Source of the DNA: Candidatus Zhuqueibacterota bacterium
GTDB lineage: Bacteria > Zhuqueibacterota > Zhuqueibacteria > Thermofontimicrobiales > Thermofontimicrobiaceae
NCBI GenBank assembly: GCA_049322915.1
Contig: JBMOPW010000007.1
Span: 180,246 to 244,245, forward strand
Length of the DNA: 64,000 bases
Reading direction: 5' to 3'
The notes below the pieces were generated by a model that was not told the origin of the DNA, did no database searches, and saw only the letters and a list, made by a program, of their open reading frames with translations. Made by a program: the position numbers and the translations under genes. Positions 6,277 to 32,624 of the stretch are shown here, in pieces. The first letter of the stretch is position 1. Each line of letters begins with the position of its first letter.

Positions 6277-6342
6277 AAGTCACACGTGCATTTGTCAGAA
6301 TTATTCCAACGCTACGTTTCCCTGTTTCTGGCTGCAGAATTT

Positions 6343-9789: not shown

Positions 9790-9804
9790 TGGCACGTCGT
9801 TTGT
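9790..9804 (+). promoter_or_regulatory. Possible sigma54 -24/-12 promoter
   Basis: TGGCAC-N5-TTGT versus consensus TGGCAC-N5-TTGC, about 60 nt upstream of ORF 9864. Confidence 0.4.
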
Positions 9805-9863
9805 TTAAATAAAGGCCAACACTAATTCGGAATAACTGTGAACGCTAAAAGAGAGAAGGTGCC

Positions 9864-10409: not shown

Positions 10410-10612
10410 ATCAGATGTTCATCAGAGCGACACCATCCCCTCTTAACCTGTAATCTATGTGATTGTGTATGAAGAGTCTTACGAGTACTATGAAATTGGC
10501 GAGATGAATAGCCTGCCTGACGAGGCGGGGTTTCATGGCGTCGGTTGAAATGAAAAATATGAGAAAGCCATTCGTTGAATTATTGGGCGGGGGTAGAATA
10601 GGAGAAATTGAG

Positions 10613-11896: not shown

Positions 11897-11954
11897 GATT
11901 GATTGATGTGAACCAATAAAAAATTATCCCTATTCATCTCATATTTCATTTCAG

Positions 11955-11995
11955 AACCCTGCATCGATACTTCAATAACGATGCAGGGTTTTTTT
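11955..11995 (+). terminator. Intrinsic terminator
   Basis: 12-bp stem AACCCTGCATCG/CGATGCAGGGTT plus a T run. Confidence 0.8.
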
Positions 11996-12031
11996 ATGTT
12001 GAAAATCCAGAAAAAATTATTATCTTACCGC

Positions 12032-12853
12032 ATGCTCACTTTCACACACACCTATGCGCTGTTGCAGGCATTTGAAAAACAATGTCGGAGAGAAGGGACG
12101 TACCCATCGCCGGAATTAGTTCTCGGCAATGTCATCCCCGATTTCATCACCCACCTCGGTAGGGAGGAATACCAGAAGCTGGCGCATGACTTGACATTGC
12201 TGCACCCATCAGCCGCGTGGACAGGGCTGGAGTGGGGCATGATTTTCCATATCCTGTGCGATAATTATTCCACCCTGGGACGCATTTCATTCGAAGGCGA
12301 TTATCACGAATTCAGGAAAGATGGGTTCATTGAGCAAAGGGCGAACGCCGTTCAAATGACCGTGCCGCTGCATGTGCCGGGAAGACGCGTCCTCCAGTGT
12401 GCGCTGGACATCCTGGTGTTGCAAGAGGAAAAAGATACACTCATCCGATCGCTGGCGGGCGCGGCTAATTGTCTCACTGAACATGGCGACGCCATCGTCG
12501 CGCGGATCGCCGACTTGTATGGCATCAGCGCTTCCAGGCTTGAGGTGGGGATGCGTCGATTCCTGAAAATTTATGGTAGGGAATTTATCCATCAGGCGGC
12601 GTCGCAGGAGTATCGGTTGTTCCCGCTGGTGCGGAGTCTGCTCGATTTAGACACGCTCTCAGAGCCGGGGCACCTGTTGAGCGAAATTCGAAAACACCCG
12701 GAGTTGATGGAATTGATTGATGTGAATATGGGGATTATCAAACAGGACTGGCGGCGCCTGCTCGAAGAAATGGTTGAGGCAACTTTCACATTCCCGGGCA
12801 TGATGCAGGCTTTGGCTTGCGATTCATCGCTGCCGGGCGTCGAATCCGAATAA
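12032..12853 (+). CDS. Hypothetical protein, possible Zn-dependent phospholipase C/ACP phosphodiesterase-like fold
   Basis: N-terminal TH, GNVIPD and GxxxHxxxD pattern. Start moved to ATG 12032, since the upstream ATG lies inside the terminator. Confidence 0.55.
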   Translation: MLTFTHTYALLQAFEKQCRREGTYPSPELVLGNVIPDFITHLGREEYQKLAHDLTLLHPSAAWTGLEWGMIFHILCDNYSTLGRISFEGDYHEFRKDGFIEQRANAVQMTVPLHVPGRRVLQCALDILVLQEEKDTLIRSLAGAANCLTEHGDAIVARIADLYGISASRLEVGMRRFLKIYGREFIHQAASQEYRLFPLVRSLLDLDTLSEPGHLLSEIRKHPELMELIDVNMGIIKQDWRRLLEEMVEATFTFPGMMQALACDSSLPGVESE

Positions 12854-12907: not shown

Positions 12908-14350
12908 TTAGAAATTGTAGCCGAGTCCGAGCATCACATTCCAGGCGTTCATTTTGTATGTGCCAGCCATGTTGTGCTCTTCCCACGAGGTTACATCGAG
13001 TTCTTTTATAAGTAACTGTTCATAACTTCCGAACAACTCAATCCCGCCGATGTTGTAGCTCAAACCGAGATTGATGCCGTGTCTGCGATTGATATCAGGA
13101 ACGGTGATGGTCAGGTTTTCCACCGGAATCGCTGCCGGTTCGGTGTAATATCCACCGCGAGCTTTCAGGTTTTCCATGAGACTGTATTCGAGACCAGCGC
13201 TGAAACGGATGCCATCTTCCCAATTCTCGACGAGCTCCGATGTCGAATTGTCTTCTTCGACCGTGATTTCGATTACATCCCAGGCTGACCACTGTGTCCA
13301 GGAAACATCAGCCGCAATCAGCATATTTTTAATTCCTGTGTAAGAAATACCAGCGCCGAGCGTCATTGGGAGCGGCAATTTTGCATCGCCTTTGGCTTTA
13401 TCATAGACTACGCTCGGTTCGCTGTACACAGCCATTATCTGAGCTTTTGATGCTGCAGGCAACATACCTAACGCTACCATTTGACCCAAGGTAGCGTCCA
13501 ATGTTTGAATTGTTGTGGTATTAGATTCTTGCAGATAGGCGGTAGCACTAATTTTCCCATCCAATGAGATATCGTTGTACCAGGTACCAGCGATTCCAAT
13601 GGTCATATCCTCTGTTAAATCGTACTGAACTCCAAAATTAAATCCAATACCACTACCGGTGCCGTCTAATTCCTTATCAACCAGGAACGATTTATAGGCA
13701 TCAGAGGCGAGTCCCAGCGGTTGTAATACACCAGCTACAAGCTGAGCATAAGCGGGGTCAAGTAGCAAAGGATTCGGTTGTGAGTCCGGAGTGCGAATAA
13801 TAATATCAGCAATAGTATAGCTAAATCCAACACCAATAGAGAGTTTATCGGTTACTTTGTATGCGATTGATGGATGGATATCGATGATTTTTAGATCATC
13901 TTCAAAGTCATCGGCCGGGTACTTGGAATTAAATGTGGATGTGTTGAACACGTCCCAGGTAGCTCCGAGGCCAAAAGGTACATAAACGCCTAATCCAAAA
14001 GAGAACTTTTCTGTAGAGTAAACAAAGCCTGCAGCAGGAATGTAAAATGTTTTGTCGACGTTTTGTAGCTCGTCAGTTCTGTAGAAAGGTATTGGAGCGC
14101 CACCAAGGACTGTGTAATTCGCCGTTGGTTTAATTCGTTCCATGCTGAATCCAAAGTGCATTCCCTGTACTTTGCTGAGCCCTGCCGGGTTCCAGTACAT
14201 TGCACTCCAATCGTTTGCCACTCCACGGTATGCCCCTCCAAGTGCGGTCGCTCTGGCGCCAACGCCTGTTAAACCAACGCCGGACGCAAACAACGATGTG
14301 GTTAAAAAGAGAACAATAACAAAGGTGCTGAACGACGTAAATCGTTTCAT
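12908..14350 (-). CDS. FadL/OmpP1-family outer-membrane transporter
   Basis: Signal peptide, GARATALGGA..ANDWSAMYWNPAGL, PFGL and terminal YNF. GGAGG RBS before ATG 14350. Confidence 0.9.
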   Translation of the reverse strand: MKRFTSFSTFVIVLFLTTSLFASGVGLTGVGARATALGGAYRGVANDWSAMYWNPAGLSKVQGMHFGFSMERIKPTANYTVLGGAPIPFYRTDELQNVDKTFYIPAAGFVYSTEKFSFGLGVYVPFGLGATWDVFNTSTFNSKYPADDFEDDLKIIDIHPSIAYKVTDKLSIGVGFSYTIADIIIRTPDSQPNPLLLDPAYAQLVAGVLQPLGLASDAYKSFLVDKELDGTGSGIGFNFGVQYDLTEDMTIGIAGTWYNDISLDGKISATAYLQESNTTTIQTLDATLGQMVALGMLPAASKAQIMAVYSEPSVVYDKAKGDAKLPLPMTLGAGISYTGIKNMLIAADVSWTQWSAWDVIEITVEEDNSTSELVENWEDGIRFSAGLEYSLMENLKARGGYYTEPAAIPVENLTITVPDINRRHGINLGLSYNIGGIELFGSYEQLLIKELDVTSWEEHNMAGTYKMNAWNVMLGLGYNF

Positions 14351-14488
14351 TTTTTTACCTCCCAAAACAAGTGGTTTGTGAATTAGTTTTTTGTAAACAT
14401 TGACTTGTATCCATTTATTGATAGGCAAGTAGTCCGGGTAACGATCACCTCCAATCTGTCTAAAGTGCTTTAGACCATAACTGCTTTT

Positions 14489-16642
14489 TTAAAATTGCCG
14501 ACTAATTGTGAAAACGTAATTTCGCACCGGCGATAGATTTCGCTCGATTTGTAAATAGTTATACTGCAGCAGATTATTCACATTAAAGGCAAGTCCAAAG
14601 TCGTACAAGGTTGTGCTGATTCGGGCGTCCCAGATTTTTTGTGCAACACGGTCGTCATTGGGATAGACTTTCACGCGTTCCAGCCGGCTGATGTAGCGAA
14701 AATCCAGACCTGCTTCGAAAATGAGATAACGTACCGTGCCGCCGGCCGTTAACAGGTGACGCGGGCGATAGGCCAGATCTTCGCCGGTATCCATGTCTTC
14801 CGGCTGCATGAAGGTATAACCGAAATTCAGTGATAGCAATTGTCGGAAGAAACTTGCCTGCCCGGTCAACTCAATCCCGCGGATTCGTGCATTGGCGACA
14901 TTGGTGAATTGCACCGTCTGGTAAATGTCCGGCTCCGGTTCGATGAAGTTTTTATAATCATTGTGAAAGAACGCCACATCAAAGATGAAATGCTGGTTGA
15001 TGACCTGGTTGATGCCCATTTCATAGGACCAGGCGCTCTCCGCTTTCAGATAGGGATTTCGGATCACTTTGAAACCGGCCGTGAATGTTTCCGTGAACAT
15101 TTCAGCCATGGTCGGCGCACGGAATCCCCGTCCCACAGAGGCTCGGACCGTGGTGAGCAGTGTCGGCTTAAAATTCAATCCCAGCTTGGGATTGAATTGA
15201 TTGTCATGCTCCCCGGTATCCACGGTGTGGCAATCGAAACGGCCTCCCAGAGTGAGCGTCACTTTTTCAGCCAGATTCAGTTCATCCTGAACATAGGCCG
15301 CCAGGATATAACCGTCGTGATTCCCCCAAACCGCGGACGTGGTGTTGTCGAAAATGCCTTCGAACCCAAATGTCAGGGTGTGCATTTTATTGGGAATGTA
15401 ATCGCCCTGAATTTCCGCTCCGACTTTATTGGCAGCGGAATAATCGCTATTATCGTGATGATGATGCTTGAAGTTATTATAAAAATAGGACGTTCGGATT
15501 TTGTAGGTCAGCCGCGAATTGACCAGTTGGCGAAATACCATGTTCCAACTGAATTTGTTCGAATTGTTCCAGTCGCCGACCGCAGGCACTGGCATTTCGA
15601 ACGCATCGTTCTGATTGCGCCACAGAAATATTTCACCGTAATCACCGCCGGTGAAGTTCGATTGAATTGTCATCGTGGAATGCAGATTGAATTTGTAATT
15701 CAATTTCCCGACGAGATTGTAGCTTTCATATTCGCCATTTTGCTGGTAGCCCGTGGATTGCTTCCGTCCCGCAGAGACGAACAGGCCGGCATTGTCCCAG
15801 GATCGAGTGTGCGTTGCATCCAATTGAGTGAAATACAGCGTTTTGTCAGCCCATTCCCATTCAGGGTAAAACGGCTTATCGTACAGCCCGGTCGTCAACT
15901 GAACCGAGGTAATTGGCTTGAGCCCCGGCTCTTTGGTGATGATATTGATGACTCCGCCTAGGGCGTGGGAGCCGTACAGTGCTGAGCCGGCGCCTTTGAT
16001 GATCTCGACGCGATCGATTTGCGACAGAGGGATGATATCCCATTTAATATCGCCGCTGTCGCCGGGCATCATGGGAATGCCATCGATCAGCAACAGCACG
16101 CGGCTGCCGGCGCCGAGACTGAATCCGGACGAGCCACGGATATTGATATCGCCCTGCATGAGATGAACGCCCGGCGTATACTCCAGGAGCTGGTCCAGAT
16201 AGGTTTTATTCCTTCGTTCAATTTCTTTGAGAGAAATGAGAGAGACGCTGTTGGGGACATCCTGAAAACTCTGGGCTTTTTTGCTAGCAGTGACAATGAC
16301 GGCCGGGTTTTCGATGACCGTCTCCAGCAACGCGAATGCGATCTGAATTTCTTTTCCCTCGATGATATCGACGGTTGATGTTTGGCTTTTGTAACCCATC
16401 ATGGTGGCCTTCACCTGATAGCTGCCGGCCGGCACATGCGAGACGATGAAACTGCCATCCAATCCGCAGGAGGCGCCCATCAACGTGTGCACTAAAATAA
16501 TATTCGCCCCCGGCAGGGGATCGCCGGTTCGGGCGTCGGTAATTTTTCCGCGAACCGTCCCCGAACCGCCGGACTGGGCGTACATGCCGCCAGGCAGACA
16601 AAGCCAGAGCGCCAGATATATGAACATGATTCTAAGTTTCAT
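14489..16642 (-). CDS. TonB-dependent receptor with CarboxypepD_reg-like N-terminal domain
   Basis: GDPLPGANI, VIVTASK, IRG, RVEIIKGAGSALYGSHALGGVINIIT, NPYLKAE and terminal F. Confidence 0.93.
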   Translation of the reverse strand: MKLRIMFIYLALWLCLPGGMYAQSGGSGTVRGKITDARTGDPLPGANIILVHTLMGASCGLDGSFIVSHVPAGSYQVKATMMGYKSQTSTVDIIEGKEIQIAFALLETVIENPAVIVTASKKAQSFQDVPNSVSLISLKEIERRNKTYLDQLLEYTPGVHLMQGDINIRGSSGFSLGAGSRVLLLIDGIPMMPGDSGDIKWDIIPLSQIDRVEIIKGAGSALYGSHALGGVINIITKEPGLKPITSVQLTTGLYDKPFYPEWEWADKTLYFTQLDATHTRSWDNAGLFVSAGRKQSTGYQQNGEYESYNLVGKLNYKFNLHSTMTIQSNFTGGDYGEIFLWRNQNDAFEMPVPAVGDWNNSNKFSWNMVFRQLVNSRLTYKIRTSYFYNNFKHHHHDNSDYSAANKVGAEIQGDYIPNKMHTLTFGFEGIFDNTTSAVWGNHDGYILAAYVQDELNLAEKVTLTLGGRFDCHTVDTGEHDNQFNPKLGLNFKPTLLTTVRASVGRGFRAPTMAEMFTETFTAGFKVIRNPYLKAESAWSYEMGINQVINQHFIFDVAFFHNDYKNFIEPEPDIYQTVQFTNVANARIRGIELTGQASFFRQLLSLNFGYTFMQPEDMDTGEDLAYRPRHLLTAGGTVRYLIFEAGLDFRYISRLERVKVYPNDDRVAQKIWDARISTTLYDFGLAFNVNNLLQYNYLQIERNLSPVRNYVFTISRQF

Positions 16643-20833: not shown

Positions 20834-23800
20834 ATGAAGGTTAAAACTTTGATAATACAAAAGGACCAGTTCATGAATTGCTTCAATCATAAGATATGCA
20901 TCGGTGCAATACTAATGGTGGCATTGCTTTCTCCAGTCCAGCATCTGAAAAGCTACAAATCGGGGATAACAGACGATGTGAAACCTGCGGTTCCGCCGGA
21001 GATGACCACGCATCAAATTGATGAGAGCAGAGTCGATTTCGAGATACGATTGGCTGGAATTTTGATAGAAGAAATGCCAGGTCAGCCCGGGTGGCAGAAA
21101 ATTACCCTGCCGGGATATGGCCATATTTCTGAAATCGGTCACCTAATGGTCCCTCAAATAATTCGTCCAATTGCTATTCCTGCTTCAGCTACTTCGGAAG
21201 ATATTCTCATTAAAATCAAATCAACGGCATTCTCCTCAGTTACGGATGTGCAGCTAAATCCGGTTCCTGAAATGGAGGAAAAAAAACAGACAGACGGCAG
21301 CTTCATTATTGAGGAGAAATATTCGCCGGATAAGGCGTTGTACATCGAGGATGCGTTCTATCCAGAAAATAATGTATCGGTCGAAAAGATTGGATTTGTG
21401 CGCGACCAAAGAGTTGCCTGGCTGAGAGTCTGCCCTGTTCAGTTCAATCCTATTGCGCGGGAAATTAGGGTGGCCGAGCGAATTGAATTTACTGTTCAAT
21501 TGAAATCCGGCGGTAGCATAACCGAAAATATTTTCAATCCGGCCACAATATTTTTCTCCAAACGCGCTTCGGCCCAGAAAGCTGGAAATGTATCCTACCC
21601 GGTGGATTTGCTGGACTCTCGTATTGAAGTGGATTATTTGCTGATCGCTGAAGAATCATTTTTCGGAAATGCGGCACTGGATTCGCTGGCACAGGTTCGC
21701 GCGACCTCGTCCGGCCTCGATGTGGCTGTGGTGAAAACGAGCGAGATTTATCAGCAATTCCCGGATGCCGCACACGATGCGTCCATTAAGTCGTTCATCA
21801 TGTATGCTTATAACAATTGGCAGGCGTCCTATTTTGGCGATGGCCACCTGGGATTTGTTCTGCTGGTCGGTGAGGGAAATGAATTCAGTGAGCGCCATGT
21901 TCCCACGCACGTTGGCCCGGCGCATTCCGCTGACCAGTGGTATGCCTGCCTGAATGACGATAACGGCGACAATGCTGTGAATGATTATGACCTGACGCCG
22001 GATATAATGGTCGGCCGTTTTTCGGTTGAGAGCCCGGAAGAACTGAATACGATAGTGCGAAAGACGATTCGATACGAGTCTGGCCTGAATTTGAATGAAC
22101 CATGGCGCAGAAAAATTTCGTTAATCAGCGGCTACATTGCGTCAGAGGTCTACGGGGAAATTCAAAGTTTATTCGAAGATTTGAATGAAACGGTTAGTGA
22201 ACAGGATTCTTATTATGTCTCAGATGAACTGATACGTTCGGATGACGGCGCCGACTTCGTGCGAACATCTTGCTTCGAAGCGTTCAACCAGGGACGCGGC
22301 ATTATCAATATACAGGCGCACGGCGGCGTGGATAACCTCGGCGACAGTCACGGCTGGCTGCTGTTTCAATCTCTGGACGTGGCCAATCTGGCTAACGAAA
22401 ACAGGTTGCCGGTAGTATTTAGCTTTGCCTGCCACACCGGTGAATTTTTCGACCTGAATGTGGATTGTCTTGGCGAAGCCCTGTTGAACACGGCGAACGA
22501 AGGCGCTGTGTTTTTTCTCGGTTGTACACATTCGGTAAATTATTTCGTCAATGATCGTCTGAACCGCCGGCTGTTCGAAATCCTCTTCTCACGGCAGATC
22601 GGCTGCCTGGGACTGGCGCTCTACTATGCCAATATTTTTGAATACCCGTTTTCAACGTATAATATTTTGGGCGATCCTGCGCTTTCGTTGACAAAAAATG
22701 AGGTTGAGCCGATGGTTGACCTGAGTGTTGCATCTTCCGATATCCGGATTTTTTGGTCCTCAACCGAAGGAAATGTGGAAATGATTTCGGCAGAAATTTA
22801 CAATGTGGGATTTCGCGATGTGAAAGACGTCCTGGTGCAATTTTTTAATGGCGATCCGGATAGCGGCGGAATCAAGATTCAGGGAGATATGGTCCTGGAG
22901 AATATCCCAGGCCAGGGCGGACATGCGGCAGCGCTTGTGGAAATTGGAGAGCTTTATGAAGAGGAACTGACAGTCTATGTTATAGTTGATCCGTATAATT
23001 CAGTCCAGGAAATTGAAGAGGGAAATAACCGGGCGTCTGTATACTCTATTGTATATCCGTTCATCGATGTGGCGGAGGACGCTGTTCCGCAGATGGCAGG
23101 AATCGGTTATAGCACAGCATTTGGGGATTACAATAATAATGGCTTTCCGGACATTTTCGTTGTGAGCAAGAACGGCAACGCCCTGTTTCAAAATTCGAAT
23201 GGCGATTTGTTTGCGGACGTCTCCCATTCTGCCGGCATTCACGATTCGTACAATGTCAACAGCTCAACCTTCCTGGATTTTGACAATGACGGCGATCTGG
23301 ATATTGCGCTGAATATGCTGAGCTACAAACCGGACGACCTGTTTTACATCGACACTATTTTTTATGAGAATGACGGACAGCGCCATTTCTCCATCAGAAT
23401 TCCATACACGAGCGAAGGTCTGCCGCTGAAGGCCGAGCCAATCGCCTGTTTTGATTTTGACAACAATGGGCTGCTTGATTTCTTGTGCAGCGAAAACAAT
23501 GGCGAGGCATGTTTTTTATTCAAAAATCTAGGGGATGGCCGGTTTGCGGATGTCACTCAAATCGTCGTTCCAATTTTAGAAGAAGGAGGTAAACACGCCT
23601 CGGTGAGCGATTACAATAGCGATGGCTTCCCTGATGTGTATGTGCTGAGGTCGTCGTCCGATTCCAATTTGCTGCTCATGAACAACCGGGATGGCACGTT
23701 TACGGATGTAGCAGACGAAGCCGGCGTCAGTTCGCCAAAGGGAGCGGATTGGTCGGTGTTTGGCGACTACAATAACGATGGCTGGTCCGATTTATTTATC

Positions 23801-24730
23801 TACCACCCAACTGGTCTCAATGCACTGTATCGCAGCAATGGCGATGGGTCGTTTGAGAATGCAGCAAATATTGCCAATGTTGCCGAGATTAAAGCCGGCT
23901 TTACCAATGGAACATTTTTAGACTATGACAACGATGGTTATCAGGATTTACTTTTAAAATTCGAAGTGTTCGATTTGTACAAAAATAACAGGGACGGCAC
24001 TTTCAGCAAGGATTTTATCAAACCTTCCGGGTTTAGCTTCAGCAGCATAGCCGTTGCCGATTACGACAGGAACGGCGGCGTCGATGTGTTTTGCCTGGGC
24101 ACGACTGGCATTCCCAATGCGCTTTTCAAAAATCGGCTCAAAATGAACAATTGGCTGACCGTGCATTTAAAAGGAATCACATGCAATTCATCCGGGATCG
24201 GCGCGCGGATTCGTGTCGTGGCCGGCGGACTGAATCAGATTCGCGATGTGGTGAACCAATTTGCCGGGGGCTTGCAGTGCGATCTCCCGGTTGAATTCGG
24301 ATTGGGGAATCACAGCGTCGTCGACACCCTTGAAGTGCGCTGGCCCGACGGGAAATCGGATATTCTTACCGGAGTAAAGGCAAACGCGGCAATCACAGTG
24401 GAACAGGGCAGGGGAGATGCCGCCATCCCAAGTTCCTCGTACTTGAGACAGAATTTTCCCAATCCGTTCAATCAATTGACGATGATTCAGTACCAGGTTC
24501 AGGGGAATCCGTTGAGTCCTGAGAAAACGGTTGCCGTTAATCTGTCCGTTTACAACATAGTTGGTCAGAAAGTAAAAACGCTTGTGAATGAAAACCGAAT
24601 CGTCGGAAGCTATGGTGCTTTGTGGGACGGCAAAGATGAACTTGGGAATTACGCGCCCAGCGGCCTGTATTTTTATAATCTTCGCTCCGGGGATTTTACC
24701 GAGACGAAAAAAATGCTGCTGCTGCGGTAG
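20834..24730 (+). CDS. Secreted C25 (gingipain-like) peptidase + CARDB + FG-GAP/ASPIC-UnbV + FlgD/T9SS-type CTD
   Basis: Propeptide, VGRF, QAHG and FACHTG dyad, YNILGDP, E.EEGNN, DYNNDG repeats, GIGARI..FGLG..VRWPDG and QNFPNPFN..SGLYFY. Confidence 0.88.
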   Translation: MKVKTLIIQKDQFMNCFNHKICIGAILMVALLSPVQHLKSYKSGITDDVKPAVPPEMTTHQIDESRVDFEIRLAGILIEEMPGQPGWQKITLPGYGHISEIGHLMVPQIIRPIAIPASATSEDILIKIKSTAFSSVTDVQLNPVPEMEEKKQTDGSFIIEEKYSPDKALYIEDAFYPENNVSVEKIGFVRDQRVAWLRVCPVQFNPIAREIRVAERIEFTVQLKSGGSITENIFNPATIFFSKRASAQKAGNVSYPVDLLDSRIEVDYLLIAEESFFGNAALDSLAQVRATSSGLDVAVVKTSEIYQQFPDAAHDASIKSFIMYAYNNWQASYFGDGHLGFVLLVGEGNEFSERHVPTHVGPAHSADQWYACLNDDNGDNAVNDYDLTPDIMVGRFSVESPEELNTIVRKTIRYESGLNLNEPWRRKISLISGYIASEVYGEIQSLFEDLNETVSEQDSYYVSDELIRSDDGADFVRTSCFEAFNQGRGIINIQAHGGVDNLGDSHGWLLFQSLDVANLANENRLPVVFSFACHTGEFFDLNVDCLGEALLNTANEGAVFFLGCTHSVNYFVNDRLNRRLFEILFSRQIGCLGLALYYANIFEYPFSTYNILGDPALSLTKNEVEPMVDLSVASSDIRIFWSSTEGNVEMISAEIYNVGFRDVKDVLVQFFNGDPDSGGIKIQGDMVLENIPGQGGHAAALVEIGELYEEELTVYVIVDPYNSVQEIEEGNNRASVYSIVYPFIDVAEDAVPQMAGIGYSTAFGDYNNNGFPDIFVVSKNGNALFQNSNGDLFADVSHSAGIHDSYNVNSSTFLDFDNDGDLDIALNMLSYKPDDLFYIDTIFYENDGQRHFSIRIPYTSEGLPLKAEPIACFDFDNNGLLDFLCSENNGEACFLFKNLGDGRFADVTQIVVPILEEGGKHASVSDYNSDGFPDVYVLRSSSDSNLLLMNNRDGTFTDVADEAGVSSPKGADWSVFGDYNNDGWSDLFIYHPTGLNALYRSNGDGSFENAANIANVAEIKAGFTNGTFLDYDNDGYQDLLLKFEVFDLYKNNRDGTFSKDFIKPSGFSFSSIAVADYDRNGGVDVFCLGTTGIPNALFKNRLKMNNWLTVHLKGITCNSSGIGARIRVVAGGLNQIRDVVNQFAGGLQCDLPVEFGLGNHSVVDTLEVRWPDGKSDILTGVKANAAITVEQGRGDAAIPSSSYLRQNFPNPFNQLTMIQYQVQGNPLSPEKTVAVNLSVYNIVGQKVKTLVNENRIVGSYGALWDGKDELGNYAPSGLYFYNLRSGDFTETKKMLLLR

Positions 24731-24968: not shown

Positions 24969-26654
24969 ATGAACCGACTCAAACACATTTCTAAAATCAT
25001 ATCTATTTTTTTGCTGGCATTGGCGCAATGTAGTATTTTACCGGATTTCGAACCGCCGAGCGTGACAATCCATTCCCCGAAAGCTGGCGAATCAGCGTAC
25101 GGCAGTGTTGAAATTGTTGCCGAAGCCAGCGACAACAACCGGCTGGATCGGATGGAATTGTACCTGGATGGGGACCTCGTTCAAACCGCTCGCGAAAACA
25201 CGATTCGGTTTACCTGGGATTTGACACAGACCAATAGCGATGCTGACCACTCTGTCCGAGTAAAAGCGATCGATCGGAGCGACAACTGGATTAATGCCGA
25301 AGTGAAGTTTTTTGGGTATGGCAAGCTGCCGGAAAAGCCTGTGCTCCTCAGTCCTATTTCAGGCGTAAAATTTACAGTTGGGGCGCCGCTGCTGGACTGG
25401 TCCGATGTTTCCAGCGCCGAGCGCTATCACCTTCAGGTGGATGATAATCAGGATTTTTCCTCGCCGTTCATCAGCGATGTTTCTCTGTCAACATCAGAAT
25501 ACGAGTTGACGGTTTTACTGGATGTGAACAAAGCCTATTTTTGGCGAGTGAGGGCAAAATTAGAATGGACATATTGGAGCGAGTGGTCCGAAACCGGGGA
25601 TTTTTTCATTATGACTTATGAATGGAAAATTCTGGTTGGGGATGGTGTTTCCACATCACCGGCAATTGATTTTGATGGCAACATTTACGTCGGCAGTTTC
25701 GATGGCACTATGTACGCTTTGTCCATAAACGGTGTTGAAAAATGGAGATTTAAGACTGACGCTATAATTAATTCAGCAGCGACAATAGCTTCGGATGGCT
25801 CAATTTACTTTGGTTCGAATGATGGTAACTTATATGCATTGGACAAGGACGGGAATTTGAAGTGGAAATTTGAAACTGGCGCTGCCATCACAGCATCTCC
25901 GGCAATTGGATACGATGGCATCATTTATATCGGCAGCGATGATTATCATTTTTATGCAATAACCCCGGACGGACAGGTGAAATGGAAATTCGAAACCGAT
26001 GGAGGCATTGGTTCATCGGCTGCAATTGATCAGTCGGGAAATATCTATTTTGGCTGCGACGATGGTTATATCTACGCGCTGAAATATAATGGCTACATAA
26101 AATGGAAGTATAAAACAGGGGGGGACGTCGACTCGTCTCCGGCTGTTGGACCGGACGGAATTATTTATATTGGATCGTATGATGAACATCTTTACGCCAT
26201 AAATTCGGACGGGACTCTGAGATGGGAGTTTGAATTGGACGGACAGGGTTCTCCGACGATAAACGTGGATGGTACAGTGGTTGTCCGCTCCGGCTTAAAT
26301 CTTGTCGGCATAAGTCTGGGTGGGGTTTTCAGATGGAGTCGCAGGCTAACGAACGGCGTGACTGATCCGGCGCTCAGTTCAGATGGAACGATTTACGTGG
26401 GAGCAACCAATCCAAGTAACATGCTGCCTTTGGGCGATTTCTATTTATTGGATTCAGTGGGCGACCTGATTAAAAAATATGAAATCGGCCCGACGTGGGA
26501 TATTTGCCCGGCAATCAATGACAAAGGAACCGTTTTTATCGCCACCCGCGATGGCTATTTGCATGCAATCAATGGATTGACTTCCGGGCTGGCTACCAGC
26601 TATTGGCCCAAATTCCAGCATGACAGCCAGAACACGGGGAGAGCCCGGAATTAA
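24969..26654 (+). CDS. Lipoprotein paralogue of 18879-20579 (Ig + Fn3 + PQQ-like propeller)
   Basis: LAQC lipobox, same architecture and WPKFQHDSQNTG tail. Confidence 0.85.
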   Translation: MNRLKHISKIISIFLLALAQCSILPDFEPPSVTIHSPKAGESAYGSVEIVAEASDNNRLDRMELYLDGDLVQTARENTIRFTWDLTQTNSDADHSVRVKAIDRSDNWINAEVKFFGYGKLPEKPVLLSPISGVKFTVGAPLLDWSDVSSAERYHLQVDDNQDFSSPFISDVSLSTSEYELTVLLDVNKAYFWRVRAKLEWTYWSEWSETGDFFIMTYEWKILVGDGVSTSPAIDFDGNIYVGSFDGTMYALSINGVEKWRFKTDAIINSAATIASDGSIYFGSNDGNLYALDKDGNLKWKFETGAAITASPAIGYDGIIYIGSDDYHFYAITPDGQVKWKFETDGGIGSSAAIDQSGNIYFGCDDGYIYALKYNGYIKWKYKTGGDVDSSPAVGPDGIIYIGSYDEHLYAINSDGTLRWEFELDGQGSPTINVDGTVVVRSGLNLVGISLGGVFRWSRRLTNGVTDPALSSDGTIYVGATNPSNMLPLGDFYLLDSVGDLIKKYEIGPTWDICPAINDKGTVFIATRDGYLHAINGLTSGLATSYWPKFQHDSQNTGRARN

Positions 26655-27165: not shown

Positions 27166-30100
27166 ATGCCCGATAGCACTCAGCCTGCAACTCCAAAAGT
27201 TTTCATTTCCTCGACGGTCGGGGATTTAACTGAATTCCGAACCGCTGTCCGCGATGCGGCGCTCCGCATCGAATTTTTACCGGTGATGTCCGAGTATTTT
27301 TTAGCCAGTGGCGCGCGGCCGCCGCTGGATGAATGCCTGGCAAAAGTCGACGCATGCGATGTGCTGGTGGTGATCGTCGCCCATCGCTTCGGCTGGATTC
27401 CTGAAAAACAGCCGGGAAAAGAGCGAAAAAGCATCACCTGGCTGGAGTGCGAACGGGCCAGAATGAACGGCACGGAAATTTTAGCTTTTCTCGCCGATGA
27501 AAAAATGGAGTGGGATGAAAAGAAAAAAGAATCCTATCGGCTGGTGGAGGCAGCCAATAGCGGGACGTTGACGCCGGCGCTGTCGGAGGATGTTCTGCAG
27601 GCGATGAATGAGCTGGACGTTTTCAAAGCCTGGCTCAATAAAAATTATGTTCGCGATACATTTACTAATTTTTCTGACCTGGCTGCCAAAGTGAGCCCGG
27701 CGCTATCTGATTGGCGGGAAAGGCATCGCGCTCAATTCCCGGTTACGACCGTGACCTCCGACCCGACGCGCTACCTGCAATGGATTTACGATGAGTGCAG
27801 CACCATCCCCATCCGCGGGCTTGCCGTGGGAAGCGGCAAAGTCCACACATTCGGTATTGAAGAACTGTACATCCCGCTCAAAACCGCCGGCGAGCAAAAA
27901 GAACGAGGCAGCGATAAAAAAACAATGGCTCCGGATGTCGCGCCCCGAAAAGTGGAATTGCACGAGACGCTCACGCACAAATACCTCACCATCATCGGCG
28001 ACCCCGGAGCCGGCAAGACAACGTTTCTCCGGCGCATTGCCTTTCACGCGTCGCGCGCATTGCTGCACCTCCCGCTTCCGGTAACTGCCAAAGCGTTCAC
28101 ACCAGGGCGCGACGATTTCCCGATTTTCATTCGGTTGGGCGAACTCACCGAATACATCATCCGATGCCGCAAGAGAAACGACTGCGCGCACCCGGTCGCT
28201 GCGGACGACCCGGAATGGATTCTCCAGTTTTTGGCGGACAGAAGCCAGTCCAAATCCTGGGGCCTGTCCAGAGAACATTTCAAACAGAAATTCCAGTCCG
28301 GGGACACGATTTTCCTGCTCGACGGTCTGGATGAAGCCCCGGACAGAATCACGCGCGAATCCATGTGCCGCCTGGTGGAAAGCTGCATGCGCGATTATCC
28401 CGGCTGCTCCTTTGTGGTCACCAGCCGGCCCGGGGCCTACCGCGACAACGCGGTCCTGCAAAATTTCTATCACGTCACCATCGAACCGCTGGAAGATTCG
28501 TCCATTCAAACATTCCTGCGCCGCTGGTCCGACGCACTGTTCCCGGGCAGCCCTGCGCAGGCGGGAGACCATTACAACGACTTGAACGGCGCCCTGCAGA
28601 GCCGCATTGAAATACGGCGAATGGCGCGCAACCCGGTGATGCTCACAGCCCTGGCCGTGGTGCACTGGAATGAGAGCCGACTGCCGGAACAGCGGGCCGA
28701 TCTGTACGAATCGGTCATCACCTGGTTGCTGCGGTCGCGGGAGCAGCGGCCCGGCCGGCTGAGCGCGGAACAGTGCGGCGCCCGCCTGCAAAACCTGGCC
28801 CTGGCCATGCAGAACCACCCGGAGGGCCGCAAGGTTTCTGTTGGCAGGCGTTGGGCTGCGGAAGCCATCAAAGACGATTTTCCCGGGAAAACAAAGGAAC
28901 AGAAAATTGCTGCCGCCGAAACATTTTTGAGCGAGGAAGAGGTGGACAGCGGCATTGTGGTGGGACGGGGAAATAACATCACGTTCTGGCATTTAACATT
29001 TCAGGAATACCTGGCCGCCAAAGCCCTGGGCGGGAAGTCCGATGAAACGCAAAAGAGTCTGCTGGTGAACCGGAAAATATTGCACGACCCGGACTGGCGC
29101 GAAGTGCTCTTGCTATTTGCCGGCGTGCTCTATGGCCAGGGCGTGGATAAAGTGGACAATTTTTTCCGCGCGATTCTGGACAAGGTTGAAGAAAACAAAG
29201 ATTTGGGTTCCCGGGCGCGATGCGTTGGCATCATTGGTGGCATGCTGCGCGACCTGTCTCCATTCAAATACGAAATAAAAGACCCGCGCTTTAAAAAAAT
29301 GCTGAACAATGTGATGGCTATTTTTGACAAAGAAAAAGCGCGTAACATTGATGTGAAAACACGTTTGGAAGCAGCCGATGCGTTGGGCCAGGCCGGGGAC
29401 CCGCGGTTGAACGAAACAGACTGGGTAAAAATTCCGGCCGGCAGTTTTCTTATGGGCGCGCAGAAAGAAAACAAGGCGAAACCCAATTACAATGAAAGTG
29501 CTCAAGAATGGGAATCCCCGGTGCATGAGGTGAAATTGTCGGCCTTTAAAATAAGCAGGTACCTGGTCACGGTAGGCCAGTACCGGCAATTCGTGGAAAA
29601 CGATGGCTATCAAAACAGAGCTTACTGGACGAATGGCGGTTGGGAACAATTCACTGAACCGAAAGATTGGGAGCAACAATTAGTTTTTCCCAGCCGGCCG
29701 GTGGTGGGGGTGAGCTGGTACGAAGCCAGCGCCTTTGCCGCCTGGGCAAAAGTAAAACTGCCCACGGAAGCCCAGTGGGAGCGAGCCGCGCAGGGCAAGA
29801 GCGGAAAGTACCATAAATATCCCTGGGGCGATGCAGAGCCGGACGGAAAAATTTCAAATTCAGGCCACACAAAATTAGGCCATCCATCCCCGGTGGGTTT
29901 GTTCCCGGACGATTGCACCGAAGAAGGTGTGCTGGACATGGGCGGCAATGTCTGGGAGTGGTGCCGCGACTGGTTCGACGATACGGGTTTTTATGAAAAA
30001 TCAACAGGATTTCTGAATCCATTAAATGATGAGGATGGCTCCCCGGGAGCATTTGGCAAAAAAGAAGGGCGCGTCGTTCGTGGCGGCTCGTGGGACTTCG

Positions 30101-30198
30101 ACAATGAGTACGTCTTCCGCTGCGCGCTTCGCATCAGGTACCTTCCAGAGTATCGGTACCTCAGTCTGGGTTTTCGTGTTGTCTGTTCCGCCGAGTGA
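27166..30198 (+). CDS. DUF4062-NACHT-FGE-sulfatase (C-type lectin fold) NLR-like protein, likely DGR target
   Basis: KVFISST...SITWLE (DUF4062), Walker A GDPGAGKT, Walker B LLDGLDE, HLTFQEYLAA, FLMG, LPTEAQWERAA, DMGGNVWEW and RGGSW...GFRVV. Confidence 0.92.
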   Translation: MPDSTQPATPKVFISSTVGDLTEFRTAVRDAALRIEFLPVMSEYFLASGARPPLDECLAKVDACDVLVVIVAHRFGWIPEKQPGKERKSITWLECERARMNGTEILAFLADEKMEWDEKKKESYRLVEAANSGTLTPALSEDVLQAMNELDVFKAWLNKNYVRDTFTNFSDLAAKVSPALSDWRERHRAQFPVTTVTSDPTRYLQWIYDECSTIPIRGLAVGSGKVHTFGIEELYIPLKTAGEQKERGSDKKTMAPDVAPRKVELHETLTHKYLTIIGDPGAGKTTFLRRIAFHASRALLHLPLPVTAKAFTPGRDDFPIFIRLGELTEYIIRCRKRNDCAHPVAADDPEWILQFLADRSQSKSWGLSREHFKQKFQSGDTIFLLDGLDEAPDRITRESMCRLVESCMRDYPGCSFVVTSRPGAYRDNAVLQNFYHVTIEPLEDSSIQTFLRRWSDALFPGSPAQAGDHYNDLNGALQSRIEIRRMARNPVMLTALAVVHWNESRLPEQRADLYESVITWLLRSREQRPGRLSAEQCGARLQNLALAMQNHPEGRKVSVGRRWAAEAIKDDFPGKTKEQKIAAAETFLSEEEVDSGIVVGRGNNITFWHLTFQEYLAAKALGGKSDETQKSLLVNRKILHDPDWREVLLLFAGVLYGQGVDKVDNFFRAILDKVEENKDLGSRARCVGIIGGMLRDLSPFKYEIKDPRFKKMLNNVMAIFDKEKARNIDVKTRLEAADALGQAGDPRLNETDWVKIPAGSFLMGAQKENKAKPNYNESAQEWESPVHEVKLSAFKISRYLVTVGQYRQFVENDGYQNRAYWTNGGWEQFTEPKDWEQQLVFPSRPVVGVSWYEASAFAAWAKVKLPTEAQWERAAQGKSGKYHKYPWGDAEPDGKISNSGHTKLGHPSPVGLFPDDCTEEGVLDMGGNVWEWCRDWFDDTGFYEKSTGFLNPLNDEDGSPGAFGKKEGRVVRGGSWDFDNEYVFRCALRIRYLPEYRYLSLGFRVVCSAE
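30070..30198 (+). other. Putative DGR variable region (VR)
   Basis: All 14 codons at the canonical Asn positions between RGGSW and GFR end in C or T, so all are derivable from AAC/AAT. Confidence 0.75.
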
Positions 30199-30265
30199 GT
30201 ATCTGTTAATCTGACCATCTGGAAATCTGAAAAAAAATTTTTTTTGGAGAAAGGTGAATGCAGCC

Positions 30266-30379
30266 TTGAAAACCTACAAAAATTTATTCGACAAAATCAC
30301 GAGTTTCGAAAACCTGCTGCTGGCGGTGAAAAAGGCGGCACAGGGGAAGAGCGGGAATTATAATGTGTTGCAATTCTGA
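30266..30379 (+). pseudogene. Truncated N-terminus of a DGR-type reverse transcriptase
   Basis: TTG start (in-frame GTG at 30254) gives MKTYKNLFDKITSFENLLLAVKKAAQGKSGNYNVLQF*. The stop lies inside a repeat. Confidence 0.7.
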
Positions 30380-30646
30380 TCGTTCGGGAATTCATCCCGA
30401 AGGTTCGGGATATTTATCCCGAATGGTGCGTTGCTCTGGGACAGACGTCCCGGCTATTGCCCGCGCTGGATAGATATCCAGCGCGATCCTGATTCAGGCA
30501 CAATTGAGAATTGACAATTGCCAATTGACAATTGAAAATGGCCGATTGTCAATTCTGATCGTTCGGGAATTCATCCCGAACGGTGCGGTGTTTGGGGACA
30601 GACGTCCCGGCCATTGCCCGCGCTGGATGAATATCCAGCGCGATCC
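30371..30646. repeat. Duplicated cluster of REP-like palindromes separated by a heptamer array
   Basis: 30371-30489 resembles 30550-30646. Hairpins TTCGGGA/TCCCGAA, GGGAC/GTCCC and CGCGCTGGAT/ATCCAGCGCG, with AATTGAC-type heptamers between. Confidence 0.85.
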
Positions 30647-30727
30647 GGCAGGATTAGTTACCGGCGCTCCCGCGTCCGGCGTTTTCCCGCCGGTGTCCCA
30701 GAAATTAAACCCCCGGCTAAAAAGTTG

Positions 30728-30756: not shown

Positions 30757-30923
30757 AAGCGCTAATTCAATTTTTTCAACCGCTGTAAAAGGCGCAGACG
30801 TCACGGCGAACCATCGCCCTGCGTTATGTCCGGCGTCCGAAATCAGTCAGGGACAGGACACGCCGGGTTCATCGCGACGGTGCGCTTGTAATGACTATAA
30901 TTACCTGGAAAGGACATGCGAAT

Positions 30924-32624
30924 ATGACTGCTCCTGAAACGAATCGCACCCCCAATTTTATTCGCAATATCATCAGAGAGGATCTGGAGACCGGCAAGTT
31001 CGACGGGCGCGTTCATACGCGATTCCCGCCGGAGCCCAATGGCTACCTTCACATCGGCCATGCCAAATCCATCTGTCTGAATTTCGGTCTCGCTGAAGAA
31101 TTCGGCGGCCTGTACAATCTGCGATTTGACGACACCAACCCGGTTAAAGAAGAAGATGAATATGTGAATTCCATTATCGAGGACGTGCGCTGGCTGGGAT
31201 TTGACTGGCAGGACCGACTGTATTATGCATCCGATTATTTTGAGCAGATGTATCAGTACGCCATTCAACTCATCCGCATGGGCGCGGCGTATGTCTGCGA
31301 TTTGACGCCGGACCAAATTCGGGACTATCGCGGCACATTGACCGAGCCGGGCAAAAACAGCCCCTATCGCGATCGCTCCATCGAAGAAAATCTCGACCTG
31401 TTCCAGCGGATGCGCGCCGGGGAATTCCCGGATGGCTCCCGCGTGCTGCGCGCCAAAATAGACATGACCTCGCCCAATTTGAACATGCGCGACCCGGTGC
31501 TGTACCGCATTCTGCACGCCCGGCATCATCGCACCAAAGACGCCTGGTGCATTTACCCGATGTACGACTGGGCCCATGGGCTGGAGGATTCCATCGAGCG
31601 CATCACGCATTCCATCTGCACGCTGGAGTTCGAGGATCACCGACCGCTGTACGACTGGTTTCTGGATCAGTTGGACGTGTATCATCCCCAGCAAATCGAG
31701 TTCGCCCGATTGAATCTCAGCCATACCGTGATGAGCAAGCGGAAATTGCTGCAACTGGTGCAGGAGAAATATGTCCGCGGCTGGGATGATCCCCGCATGC
31801 CGACAATCTCCGGCCTGCGCCGGCGCGGCTACACCCCGGAGTCCATTCGCGATTTTGCCGAGAAGATCGGCGTGGCCAAGCGGGACAGTATGGTGGACCT
31901 GGCGCTGCTGGAGCACTGCCTGCGCGAAGACCTGAACAAGCGGGCGCCGCGCGTGATGGGTGTGCTTCATCCGCTCAAAGTGATCATCGATAATTACCCG
32001 GAGGGTCAGGTGGAGTACCTGGACGCCATCAATAACCCGGAGGATGAATCCGCCGGCCTGCGCAGCGTGCCTTTCTCCCGCGAACTTTATATTGAGCAAT
32101 CGGATTTCATGGAGAATCCGCCGAAGAAATTCTATCGGCTCTCCCCGGGCGCCGAGGTGCGACTGCGCTATGCTTATTACATCACCTGCGTCGGTGTTGT
32201 GAAAGATGAGCACACCGGTGAAATCAAGGAACTGCATTGCACGTACGATCCAGAGTCCCGCGGCGGCTATTCTCCGGACGGTCGCCGGGTGAAGAGCACC
32301 ATCCATTGGGTATCTGCCGGTCAGGCGCTGAAAGCGGAGGTGCGGCTGTACGATAATTTGCTGAGCGTCGCTGATCCTTCCCGGGAAGAGAATGGCGGGG
32401 ATTTCAAATCATTTTTGAACCCGAATTCGCTGGAAATTCTGGCGGAATGTTTTGTGGAACCATCGCTGGCCAGCGCCAGACCCGGCGATCGATTTCAATT
32501 TGAGCGCCTGGGCTACTTCAGCATGGACCCTGATTCCCGGGAAAACAAGCCCGTGTTCAACCGAACCGTTACCTTGCGGGATACCTGGGCCAGGATGGAA
32601 AAGTCAGGCAAAACCGATGAATAA
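30924..32624 (+). CDS. glnS: Glutamine--tRNA ligase
   Basis: [38 protein letters not shown] and FQFERLGYF. Confidence 0.97.

What the first reader, a model, noticed from the sequence alone, without database searches (positions are those of the whole stretch)
27166..30379. NLR-like DUF4062-NACHT receptor whose lectin sensor carries a DGR hypermutation signature
Seen: the architecture is DUF4062 - NACHT - FGE/C-type-lectin fold. Between RGGSW and GFR, the 14 codons that align to Asn in the canonical DGR template peptide (W-NNNNENNFRCANRNRNNPENRNNN-LGFR) are GAC, TTC, GAC, AAT, TAC, GTC, CTT, ATC, TAC, CTT, TAT, TAC, CTC and AGT. All end in C or T, and Leu there is CTT/CTC although CTG is common elsewhere in the gene. 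Known: DGRs mutate template adenines so that AAY becomes NNY, FGE-type CLec domains are common targets, and NACHT proteins act as bacterial immune switches. Inference: this is a diversified antigen sensor coupled to a TIR/nucleoside-deoxyribosyltransferase-like effector (Glu retained in SITWLE), i.e. an adaptive-like defence or self/non-self system. The general concept is known in other phyla, and whether this combination in this lineage is new needs a search.
Basis: partly seen in the sequence, partly recalled or inferred. Interest (0 to 1): 0.9.

Follow-up and report, generated by a model that had tools for sequence, protein, structure and literature searches.

The report
Orphaned hypermutation site on NLR-like sensor
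A bacterial immune-sensor-like gene carries the clear scar of targeted hypermutation by a diversity-generating retroelement, but in this genome the retroelement has decayed, so the sensor tip is most likely frozen; both the sensor type and its hypermutation are already described kinds.

Summary
ORF 27166-30198 encodes DUF4062 - NACHT - FGE/C-type-lectin. All 14 listed codons end in C/T.

The DGR reading of the history is supported. A same-genus genome (G001) keeps a template repeat next to an Avd gene at the syntenic locus. Over 123 nt, 18 of the 23 mismatches to the window's variable region lie at template adenines (hypergeometric P about 1e-8).

This genome holds no template for the site. 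Only a 41-codon reverse-transcriptase N-terminal remnant (30254-30379) follows the gene, and it abuts a dispersed repeat. The roughly 4.5 kb that G001 carries here (second target, avd, TR) is missing.

The site is therefore most likely an orphaned, frozen variable region on an otherwise intact gene under purifying selection (dN/dS 0.20 outside the VR).

The N-terminal domain belongs to the DUF4062 family, which 2026 preprints report as TIR-like NADases.

DGR-diversified NACHT-lectin sensors are published (PMC10907252). This is a new member of a known kind, of moderate interest.

The parts
27166..30198 (+). Gene for a 1010-aa NLR-like protein: DUF4062 (TIR-like NADase family) - NACHT - helical linker - FGE/C-type-lectin domain
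   Evidence: ORF. Pfam domains. 2019 homologues at E<=0.001 among the 8000 candidates scored, and the 120 listed carry the same three Pfam domains. dN/dS against the G001 orthologue is 0.20 outside the VR.
27196..27459 (+). DUF4062 domain (aa 11-98). The invariant Glu E94 is codon 27445-27447, in the motif SITWLE.
   Evidence: Pfam 72.2 bits. Profile hits to the solved KpSwz DUF4062 (10wc, E 1.3e-9) and TEP1 (11gz, E 3.3e-5). AlphaFold2 model with pLDDT 90.2. Best Foldseek hit is a TIR domain (4c6t); nucleoside 2-deoxyribosyltransferase (2a0k) is also listed. E94 is invariant in 37 of 37 sequences.
27985..28530 (+). NACHT NTPase module (aa 274-455). Walker A is GDPGAGKTT (aa 278-286, 27997-28023). 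Walker B-like is LLDGLDE (aa 384-390).
   Evidence: Pfam 45.7 bits. Motifs printed. G281, G283, K284, T286, D389 and E390 are invariant in 60 sequences.
29413..30183 (+). FGE-sulfatase / C-type-lectin-fold domain (aa 750-1006), the predicted ligand-binding sensor
   Evidence: Pfam 177.6 bits. NCBIfam enzyme equivalogs score far below their cut-offs (EgtB 126 against 360).
30072..30194 (+). DGR variable region (123-nt core). The substituted codons lie in 30094-30165.
   Evidence: Aligned without gaps to the G001 template repeat: 23 mismatches, 18 at template A and 5 at non-A third codon positions. dN 0.405 and dS 0.10 over 26 codons against the G001 orthologue.
30254..30379 (+). Remnant of a DGR reverse-transcriptase gene: GTG start, 41 codons, then a stop inside a repeat element
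   Evidence: tblastn matches the extreme N-termini of full-length DGR RT genes in at least 11 fetched relatives' loci and in this genome's C16 RT, with E from 5e-5 to 0.016. No Pfam hit. Two copies cut at the same point occur in G001.
30371..30490 (.). Copy 1 of a dispersed ~90-nt palindrome-containing repeat, at the point where the RT reading frame ends
   Evidence: blastn against the whole genome finds many copies on many contigs. An exact 31-nt duplicate lies at 30371-30401 and 30550-30580.
30550..30650 (.). Copy 2 of the same dispersed repeat. Between the copies is a short 'caattg' low-complexity tract.
30891..32624 (+). Glutaminyl-tRNA synthetase-like gene (name from my reading of the translation, not from a family scan). 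It is the downstream synteny anchor that brackets the missing DGR segment.
   Evidence: ORF. 81% nt identity to L024:13042-14771 in G001.

Best explanation
The gene encodes an intracellular NLR-like receptor with three parts.
- A C-terminal C-type-lectin/FGE-fold domain is the ligand sensor.
- A central NACHT NTPase is the oligomerisation switch.
- An N-terminal DUF4062 domain is the effector. By homology to tested family members it would hydrolyse NAD+ once clustered, causing growth arrest or abortive infection.

The tip of the sensor (30072-30194) was written by a diversity-generating retroelement. An error-prone reverse transcriptase copies a template-repeat RNA, randomises the adenines, and the cDNA replaces the variable region.

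In this genome the retroelement at the locus has decayed. The reverse transcriptase is cut to 41 codons where a dispersed repeat begins. The block that the sister species still carries between this remnant and the downstream tRNA-synthetase gene (second target, avd, template repeat) is absent. The variable region is therefore an orphan whose sequence is now fixed, while the receptor gene stays intact and under purifying selection.

Shown:
- the domain architecture;
- the adenine-specific relation to a congener's template;
- the RT remnant;
- the absence of a matching template in the assembly.

Inferred:
- NADase activity;
- ligand-triggered oligomerisation;
- a role in defence or self/non-self recognition;
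- that diversification has stopped.
For: Architecture and effector
- Architecture by Pfam.
- G001 (same genus, orthologue 80% identical) is syntenic. Its gene order is target1, RT remnant, repeat, second RT remnant, 942-aa NACHT-FGE target2, Avd (NF033474, 101 bits, cut-off 80), template repeat, then the tRNA-synthetase gene.
- The DUF4062 profile hits the solved KpSwz and TEP1 domains. The fold is TIR/NDT-like. E94 is invariant in 37 of 37 sequences. Passages of three 2026 preprints report NADase activity or NAD+ depletion dependent on a conserved Glu.

Template relation
- G001 TR against its own VR2: 22 of 22 mismatches at A.
- G001 TR against its VR1: 16 of 19 at A.
- G001 TR against the window VR: 18 of 23 at A, with 33 A in 123 nt, P = 9.5e-9.
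- The 5 non-A mismatches are all at third codon positions.
- In the VR, dN/dS is about 4, against 0.20 for the rest of the gene.

Decay in this genome
- Neither blastn, nor an N-masked pattern with up to 3 mismatches, nor the G001 TR finds a template for this VR.
- Only one Avd scores above cut-off, on C16.
- No orthologue of target2 was found, nor any match to the G001 segment beyond short repeats.
- The RT remnant is identified.
- The repeat at its end is dispersed across the genome.
Against: - The assembly is a 45-contig genome estimated 96.3% complete. A template on unassembled or unbinned DNA cannot be excluded.
- Only assembled contigs of public runs could be laid, not raw reads, so population variation at the VR is untested.
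- Non-A third-position divergence between this VR and the G001 template is 5 of 39, lower than the gene-wide 29% (one-sided binomial P 0.015). Any loss may therefore be recent, or a template may still exist.
- G001's own cassette also lacks an adjacent full RT, yet its VR2 shows 22 of 22 A-only mismatches. Action in trans by a distant RT is therefore plausible in this genus.
- HMMER's alignment to KpSwz puts this family's invariant E94 two residues after the Glu of KpSwz's SFTE. The equivalence of E94 to the catalytic Glu is inferred.
- PADLOC gives no hit, and the flanking genes are not recognisable defence genes.
Confidence: 0.78

Rival explanations
1. The variable region is still being diversified. 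A matching template repeat, with an RT, lies in unassembled or unbinned DNA or on a mobile element, and acts in trans on this remote target.
For: - The genome is 96.3% complete in 45 contigs.
- The same genome has a full DGR RT and Avd on contig C16.
- G001's cassette has a template and Avd but no adjacent RT, yet shows 22 of 22 A-only mismatches.
- PMC10907252 reports incomplete loci and candidate remote targets that are diversified, with trans activity proposed (passages).
- The VR is closer to the G001 template at silent non-A sites (5 of 39) than the gene-wide 29%.
Against: - No template was found by three searches of the assembly.
- The syntenic site is contiguous inside a 453-kb contig and lacks the segment.
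- The C16 template differs at 25 non-A positions plus indels, and its 3' end differs from the 3' end of this VR.
- There is no second Avd above cut-off.
Confidence: 0.14
2. The C/T-ending codons are chance or local codon bias in an ordinary SUMF1/EgtB-type enzyme domain, with no retroelement involved.
For: Public records name homologues 'SUMF1/EgtB/PvdO family nonheme iron enzyme'. The 14 codon positions were chosen post hoc.
Against: - A congener's template next to an Avd matches this segment, with 18 of 23 mismatches at A (P about 1e-8).
- An RT remnant sits 55 nt downstream.
- dN/dS is about 4 in the VR against 0.20 elsewhere.
- The enzyme equivalogs score far below their cut-offs.
- Homologues are hypervariable at exactly these positions while the scaffold residues are conserved.
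Confidence: 0.02
3. The whole gene is a decaying relic, a non-functional pseudogene in the making, and not a working fixed-specificity receptor.
For: The retroelement around it has decayed. Earlier notes of this scan on other genomes describe similar relics, one with a broken gene (unchecked by me).
Against: - The reading frame is open over 1010 codons.
- Walker A/B motifs and E94 are intact.
- dN/dS is 0.20 at dS 0.57 against the orthologue. This measures selection over the whole divergence, not only the time since the loss.
Confidence: 0.06

Closest known systems
DGR-diversified STAND-NTPase/C-type-lectin 'putative antigen sensors' of multicellular bacteria (Thiohalocapsa PB-PSB1 DGR 3 locus and clade 5D; PMC10907252, passages read)
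   Same: - A central NACHT fused to a C-terminal CLec domain bearing the VR.
- Loci commonly have two such targets.
- Incomplete loci and remote targets occur.
- MITE-like repeats and transposons reshape the loci.
   Different: - Here the N-terminal domain is DUF4062. The passages I read mention TIR, peptidase or uncharacterised N-terminal extensions.
- The host's relatives are labelled KSB1 or 'Cytophagia' MAGs.
- This copy has lost its template.
DUF4062 (NIR) TIR-like NADase effectors: PsAvs2, Vulcan, Vesta, Swarozyc/KpSwz, Evangelion, human TEP1 (bioRxiv 10.64898/2026.09.04.749371, 10.64898/2026.05.01.722283, 10.64898/2026.06.25.731849; passages)
   Same: - An N-terminal DUF4062 ahead of a STAND/NACHT module.
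- A conserved Glu near residue 90-110.
- Profile similarity to the solved KpSwz and TEP1 domains.
   Different: - Those sensors are TPR, WD40 or other repeats, or small auxiliary regions.
- The terms FGE, sulfatase, lectin and retroelement do not occur in the main texts as searched.
- Figures and supplements were not seen.
Bordetella phage BPP-1 DGR (mtd-avd-TR-brt), the prototype (recalled; described in PMC7159879, passages)
   Same: - Adenine-specific template-to-variable-region information transfer into a C-type-lectin fold.
- An Avd accessory protein is present in the congener.
   Different: - This is a cellular, intracellular receptor, not a phage tail fibre.
- The gene order in relatives is target-RT-TR.
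- Here the RT is truncated and the TR absent.
STAND clades with FGE-sulfatase-like sensors in the survey of bacterial pattern-recognition receptors (PMC13581612; passages)
   Same: A STAND NTPase with an FGE-sulfatase-like C-terminal sensor, classed among possible defence STANDs.
   Different: That paper's main text contains no occurrence of DGR, retroelement, hypermut or DUF4062. The link to hypermutation is not made there.

Membership tests
Diversity-generating retroelement (functional cassette) | A template repeat in the same genome that differs from the variable region only or mainly at template adenines | tested here: not met
   No template for 30072-30194 in the 6.25-Mb assembly. The feature is met only against the congener G001's template: 18 of 23 mismatches at A.
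Diversity-generating retroelement (functional cassette) | A full-length DGR-type reverse transcriptase serving the locus | tested here: not met
   Only a 41-codon N-terminal remnant at 30254-30379. The genome's one full DGR-type RT is on C16 with a different template. The other RVT_1 hit, on C34, was not examined.
Diversity-generating retroelement (functional cassette) | Avd accessory gene | tested here: not met
   None at the locus. One Avd above cut-off in the genome, on C16. The congener has one next to its template.
DGR target protein (variable protein) | A C-terminal C-type-lectin/FGE fold carrying the VR, with substitutions at codon positions 1-2 of template AAY codons | tested here: met
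   FGE-sulfatase domain, 177.6 bits. 14 of 14 variable codons are NNY. dN 0.405 against dS 0.10 in the VR. The G001 template has AAC/AAT at 13 of these 14 codons and CAA at one.
Bacterial NACHT / NLR-like STAND receptors | A NACHT NTPase with Walker A and B motifs, flanked by an N-terminal effector and a C-terminal sensor | tested here: met
   Pfam NACHT 45.7 bits against a cut-off of 26.7. GDPGAGKTT and LLDGLDE are conserved.
Bacterial NACHT / NLR-like STAND receptors | Demonstrated or model-based anti-phage assignment | tested here: not met
   PADLOC-DB 2.0.0 gives 0 families. NCBIfam antiphage_EruA scores 22 bits against a cut-off of 1000. Function cannot be tested with these tools.
DUF4062 / NIR TIR-like NADase | Sequence membership of DUF4062 and a TIR-like fold | tested here: met
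   Pfam 72.2 bits against a cut-off of 24.7. PDB profile hits to KpSwz (E 1.3e-9) and TEP1 (E 3.3e-5). Model pLDDT 90.2; top Foldseek hit is the RPS4 TIR domain, with NDTs and SARM1 also listed, at modest TM 0.46-0.54.
DUF4062 / NIR TIR-like NADase | Catalytic glutamate | tested here: inconclusive
   E94 is invariant in 37 of 37 sequences and present in at least 90% of 60. HMMER's alignment to KpSwz offsets it by two residues from KpSwz's SFTE Glu. No residue-level superposition was made.
DUF4062 / NIR TIR-like NADase | NAD+ hydrolysis | not testable with these tools
   Needs an enzyme assay.
SUMF1/EgtB/PvdO-type iron enzymes (the public annotation of homologues) | A score above the equivalog cut-offs | tested here: not met
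   EgtB 126.1 against 360; SenA 111.9 against 420; PvdO 61.8 against 500.

The most novel reading that the evidence does not exclude
Loss of the retroelement 'hard-wires' a specificity that hypermutation had found. The receptor survives as a fixed, germline-encoded innate sensor under purifying selection.

Most members of the large DUF4062-NACHT-lectin family may be such frozen descendants. In my survey, 22 of 35 well-flanked homologue loci had neither an RT nor an adenine-biased repeat pair within the 4-8 kb held.

This would be a recurrent route in bacteria from adaptive-like receptors to innate receptors.
Probability: 0.3. Interest if true: 0.6.

Novelty: new member of a known kind. Interest (0 to 1): 0.36.

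Why it matters
It gives a clean natural example of the life cycle of a hypermutable immune-like receptor. One species of the genus keeps the template and Avd, while its sister keeps only the written product and a stump of the reverse transcriptase.

It also joins two recent lines of work that the texts I could search do not connect. One is the DUF4062 NADase effectors; the other is DGR-diversified NACHT-lectin sensors. The architecture is abundant: 2019 homologues at E<=0.001 among the 8000 candidates scored.

It suggests a testable receptor: a lectin tip as sensor, NACHT as switch, and NAD+ depletion as output.

It does not reveal a new kind of system.

Tried and rejected
- Read mapping for VR polymorphism. 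Only Logan contigs were available, no raw reads. In run X1, which may be the source of this DNA and so is not independent, a 456-nt contig covers 29945-30400 with no differences. Runs X2 and X3 hold only relatives' fragments. This says nothing about rare variants.
- My first survey of relatives' loci used a wrongly picked ORF as the second RT query. It was an FGE-containing protein, not an RT, so all 'rtG001C141' hits there are FGE domains. The survey was redone with three real RT queries.
- The own-genome C16 template as donor for this VR is rejected: 46 mismatches, 25 of them non-A, plus indels.
- A scan of metagenome contigs with a degenerate motif of the template's 5' part gave 2 loci. Both are distant relatives in the order RT-avd-TR-target, and neither is from this lineage.
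- The per-column C/T test across homologues could use only 10 VRs of the same length out of 67 extracted, too few to add weight.
- No Pfam hit for the 41-aa remnant. It was identified by tblastn against RT genes instead.
- Searches of this scan's notes by place and by sequence returned nothing.
- One search failed on a frame error and on a usage error. Both were corrected and repeated.
Full report
**What is there.**
The window is G000:C7:180246-244245. ORF 27166..30198 (+) encodes 1010 aa. Pfam finds three domains:
- DUF4062, aa 11-98, 72.2 bits;
- NACHT, aa 274-455, 45.7 bits;
- FGE-sulfatase, aa 750-1006, 177.6 bits.

Leu is mostly CTG outside the stretch (41 of 84) but is CTT, CTT and CTC at the variable positions.

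**The decisive test: a template.**
In the window's own genome (6.25 Mb, 45 contigs, 96.3% complete) no template was found.
- blastn with the VR finds only the VR itself.
- A pattern with the variable codons masked, allowing up to 3 mismatches, also finds only the VR itself.

A genome of the same genus does hold one. G001 has an orthologue 80% identical and is syntenic at this locus. I fetched G001:C27:34000-52000 as L024. Its gene order is:

| Feature in L024 | Coordinates |
|---|---|
| target1 | 4938-7964 |
| RT remnant A | about 8028-8145 |
| dispersed repeat | 8134-8237 |
| RT remnant B (frameshifted) | 8270-8387 |
| second NACHT-FGE target, 942 aa | 8769-11597 |
| Avd (NF033474, 101 bits, cut-off 80) | 11662-12012 |
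| template repeat | 12038-12160 |
| stretch with no ORF | about 830 nt |
| glutaminyl-tRNA-synthetase-like gene | 13010-14767 |

Over a gap-free 123-nt core the G001 template has 33 A. Mismatches to each variable region are:

| Variable region | Mismatches | At template A |
|---|---|---|
| G001 VR2 | 22 | 22 |
| G001 VR1 | 19 | 16 |
| Window VR | 23 | 18 |

The hypergeometric probability of at least 18 of 23 at A is 9.5e-9. The window's 5 non-A mismatches are all at third codon positions, as expected between two species.

Against the G001 orthologue, dN/dS is 0.20 over 967 codons outside the VR (dS 0.57). Over the 26 VR codons dN is 0.405 and dS 0.10.

**What this genome has lost.**
Fifty-five nt after the stop codon there is a GTG-started ORF of 41 codons (30254-30379). 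It has no Pfam hit. By tblastn it matches the very N-termini of full-length DGR reverse transcriptases, with E from 5e-5 to 0.016. The places coincide with the RT starts located independently. The matches are:
- this genome's own C16 RT;
- L027, the fetched G001 RT locus;
- L073, L077, L069, L048, L052, L066, L089, L078, L110 and L076.

The frame ends where a dispersed repeat begins. That repeat of about 90 nt has many copies across many contigs. Two copies lie at 30371-30490 and 30550-30650 and share an exact 31-nt start. Both G001 remnants end at the same point, so the RT truncation predates the split of the two species.

The roughly 4.5 kb that G001 carries between the remnant and the synthetase gene has no counterpart in this genome. 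That segment holds remnant B, target2, avd and the TR.
- Only short repeat hits were found to it.
- No target2 orthologue was found.
- Only one Avd scores above cut-off, on C16.
- The G001 template finds only the window VR and part of the C16 template.

**The other DGR in the genome is not the donor.**
Contig C16 holds a complete cassette:
- an FGE target, 7981-8946;
- Avd, 9124-9477;
- a TR at about 9479-9610;
- an RT, 9783-10856.

Its TR and VR differ by 13 mismatches, all 13 at A. Against the window VR the C16 TR shows 46 mismatches, 25 of them at non-A positions, plus indels and a different 3' end.

**The effector.**
I built a 37-sequence alignment of the N-terminal 190-200 aa and used it three ways.
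- As a profile it hits the solved DUF4062 domain of KpSwz (10wc, E 1.3e-9) and human TEP1 (11gz, E 3.3e-5).
- It gives an AlphaFold2 model with mean pLDDT 90.2.
- The model's best Foldseek match in the PDB is a plant TIR domain (4c6t). Nucleoside 2-deoxyribosyltransferases, SARM1 and other flavodoxin-like folds are also listed, at modest TM-scores of 0.46-0.54.

E94 (SITWLE) is invariant in 37 of 37 sequences.

I read passages of three 2026 preprints.
- 10.64898/2026.05.01.722283 reports DUF4062 domains as TIR-like NADases.
- 10.64898/2026.09.04.749371 reports defence and NAD+ depletion that depend on a conserved Glu in STAND proteins.
- 10.64898/2026.06.25.731849 reports a putative catalytic Glu in a conserved acidic 'SYT' region.

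HMMER's alignment to KpSwz offsets E94 by two residues from KpSwz's Glu. I therefore treat E94 as the catalytic residue by inference only.

**Mechanism proposed.**
The lectin-fold tip binds a ligand. NACHT then oligomerises; Walker A (GDPGAGKTT) and Walker B (LLDGLDE) are intact. The clustered DUF4062 domains hydrolyse NAD+, giving growth arrest. This is inferred from homologues and nothing of it was tested here. PADLOC gives no hit.

The sensor tip was set by DGR mutagenic retrohoming, but here it can no longer be rewritten unless a template exists outside the assembly.

**How common is the orphan state?**
The architecture is abundant. There are 2019 proteins at E<=0.001 among the 8000 candidates scored, and the 120 listed carry all three domains. 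The names that sources give span KSB1, Bryobacteraceae, Planctomycetota, Phycisphaerae and others.

I fetched 79 homologue loci from genome contigs and surveyed them.
- 63 hold a target 3' end.
- 35 have at least 4 kb on both sides.
- Of those 35, 10 have a repeat pair with at least 75% of mismatches at one repeat's A, 10 have an RT of at least 150 aa, 13 have either, and 22 have neither.

My thresholds and the 8-kb flanks can miss templates, and remote templates were not sought.

In relatives with an intact cassette the order is target, RT, TR, often followed by a second target. This fits the position of the remnant here.

**Literature.**
- DGR diversification of NACHT/STAND-CLec 'putative antigen sensors' is described in PMC10907252, including incomplete loci, remote targets and MITE-like repeats (passages).
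- The association of FGS-domain conflict systems with DGRs is described in PMC7159879 (passages).
- STANDs with FGE-like sensors are noted in PMC13581612, whose main text has no occurrence of DGR, retroelement, hypermut or DUF4062.
- A full-text search for DUF4062 found 15 papers, of which 12 were listed, none about DGRs.
- The three DUF4062 preprints contain no FGE, sulfatase or retroelement in their main text as searched; lectin was searched only in the NIR preprint.
- A search for KSB1 plus 'diversity-generating retroelement' found 2 papers, of which 1 was listed. I saw only its listing.

So I did not find the explicit DUF4062-NACHT-CLec-DGR combination in these searches. Figures and supplements were not seen.

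Earlier notes of this scan describe similar orphaned DGR repeats on NACHT-FGE genes in three other genomes. I did not check them.

**Caveats.**
- The genome is a multi-contig assembly, and raw reads were not available, so ongoing diversification from an unassembled template is not excluded.
- Non-A third-position divergence between this VR and the G001 template is 5 of 39. That is lower than the gene-wide 29% (one-sided P 0.015). This fits a fairly recent last rewriting or a slowly evolving template.

**Verdict.**
The DGR origin is confirmed through a congener's template. The present-day status is most likely an orphaned, frozen variable region on an intact NLR-like NADase receptor. This is a new member of a known kind.

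Noticed in passing
G000 contig C16:7981-10856 (outside the window; loci L008, L032): A complete DGR in the same genome: FGE-domain target, Avd (NF033474, 108.6 bits), template repeat and a 357-aa RT. TR and VR differ by 13 mismatches, all 13 at template A. A run of withheld N lies just upstream of the target.
   Followed up: partly
G000 contig C18, about 7400-7800, minus strand (locus L116): Another apparent DGR relic. A reading frame ends in a VR-like '...GGWSFVGFRVV' and is followed by a roughly 35-codon Avd N-terminal fragment that stops prematurely.
   Followed up: no
window 30371-30490 and 30550-30650; many other contigs, e.g. a cluster at C14:817159-817673: A dispersed repeat of about 90 nt with an internal palindrome (TTCGGGA..TCCCGAA), present in many copies across many contigs. 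It sits exactly where the RT frame is cut. It looks REP- or MITE-like, but its nature was not studied.
   Followed up: partly
L024 (G001:C27) 8769-12160: The congener's cassette (second target, Avd, TR) has no adjacent full-length RT, yet its VR2 differs from the TR at 22 of 22 adenine positions. The only full-length candidate DGR-type RT seen in that genome is on contig C141, between two NACHT-FGE genes. Two further RVT_1 hits, C89 (316-aa ORF) and C87 (partial), were not examined. This suggests service in trans.
   Followed up: partly
G000 contig C14:574592-579532 and C45:75176-78840: Further NACHT-FGE or FGE paralogues in the same genome, one with an in-frame TAG. Whether they carry orphan variable regions was not examined.
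   Followed up: no
window 20834-24730 and 24969-26654: Upstream neighbours are a 1298-aa protein with FG-GAP/VCBS-like repeats and a C-terminal sorting-domain-like tail, and a 561-aa beta-propeller-like lipoprotein. Both names come from my reading of the translations only, and neither is a recognisable defence gene.
   Followed up: no
window 30505-30550: A short low-complexity tract of 'caattg'-like units between the two repeat copies.
   Followed up: no
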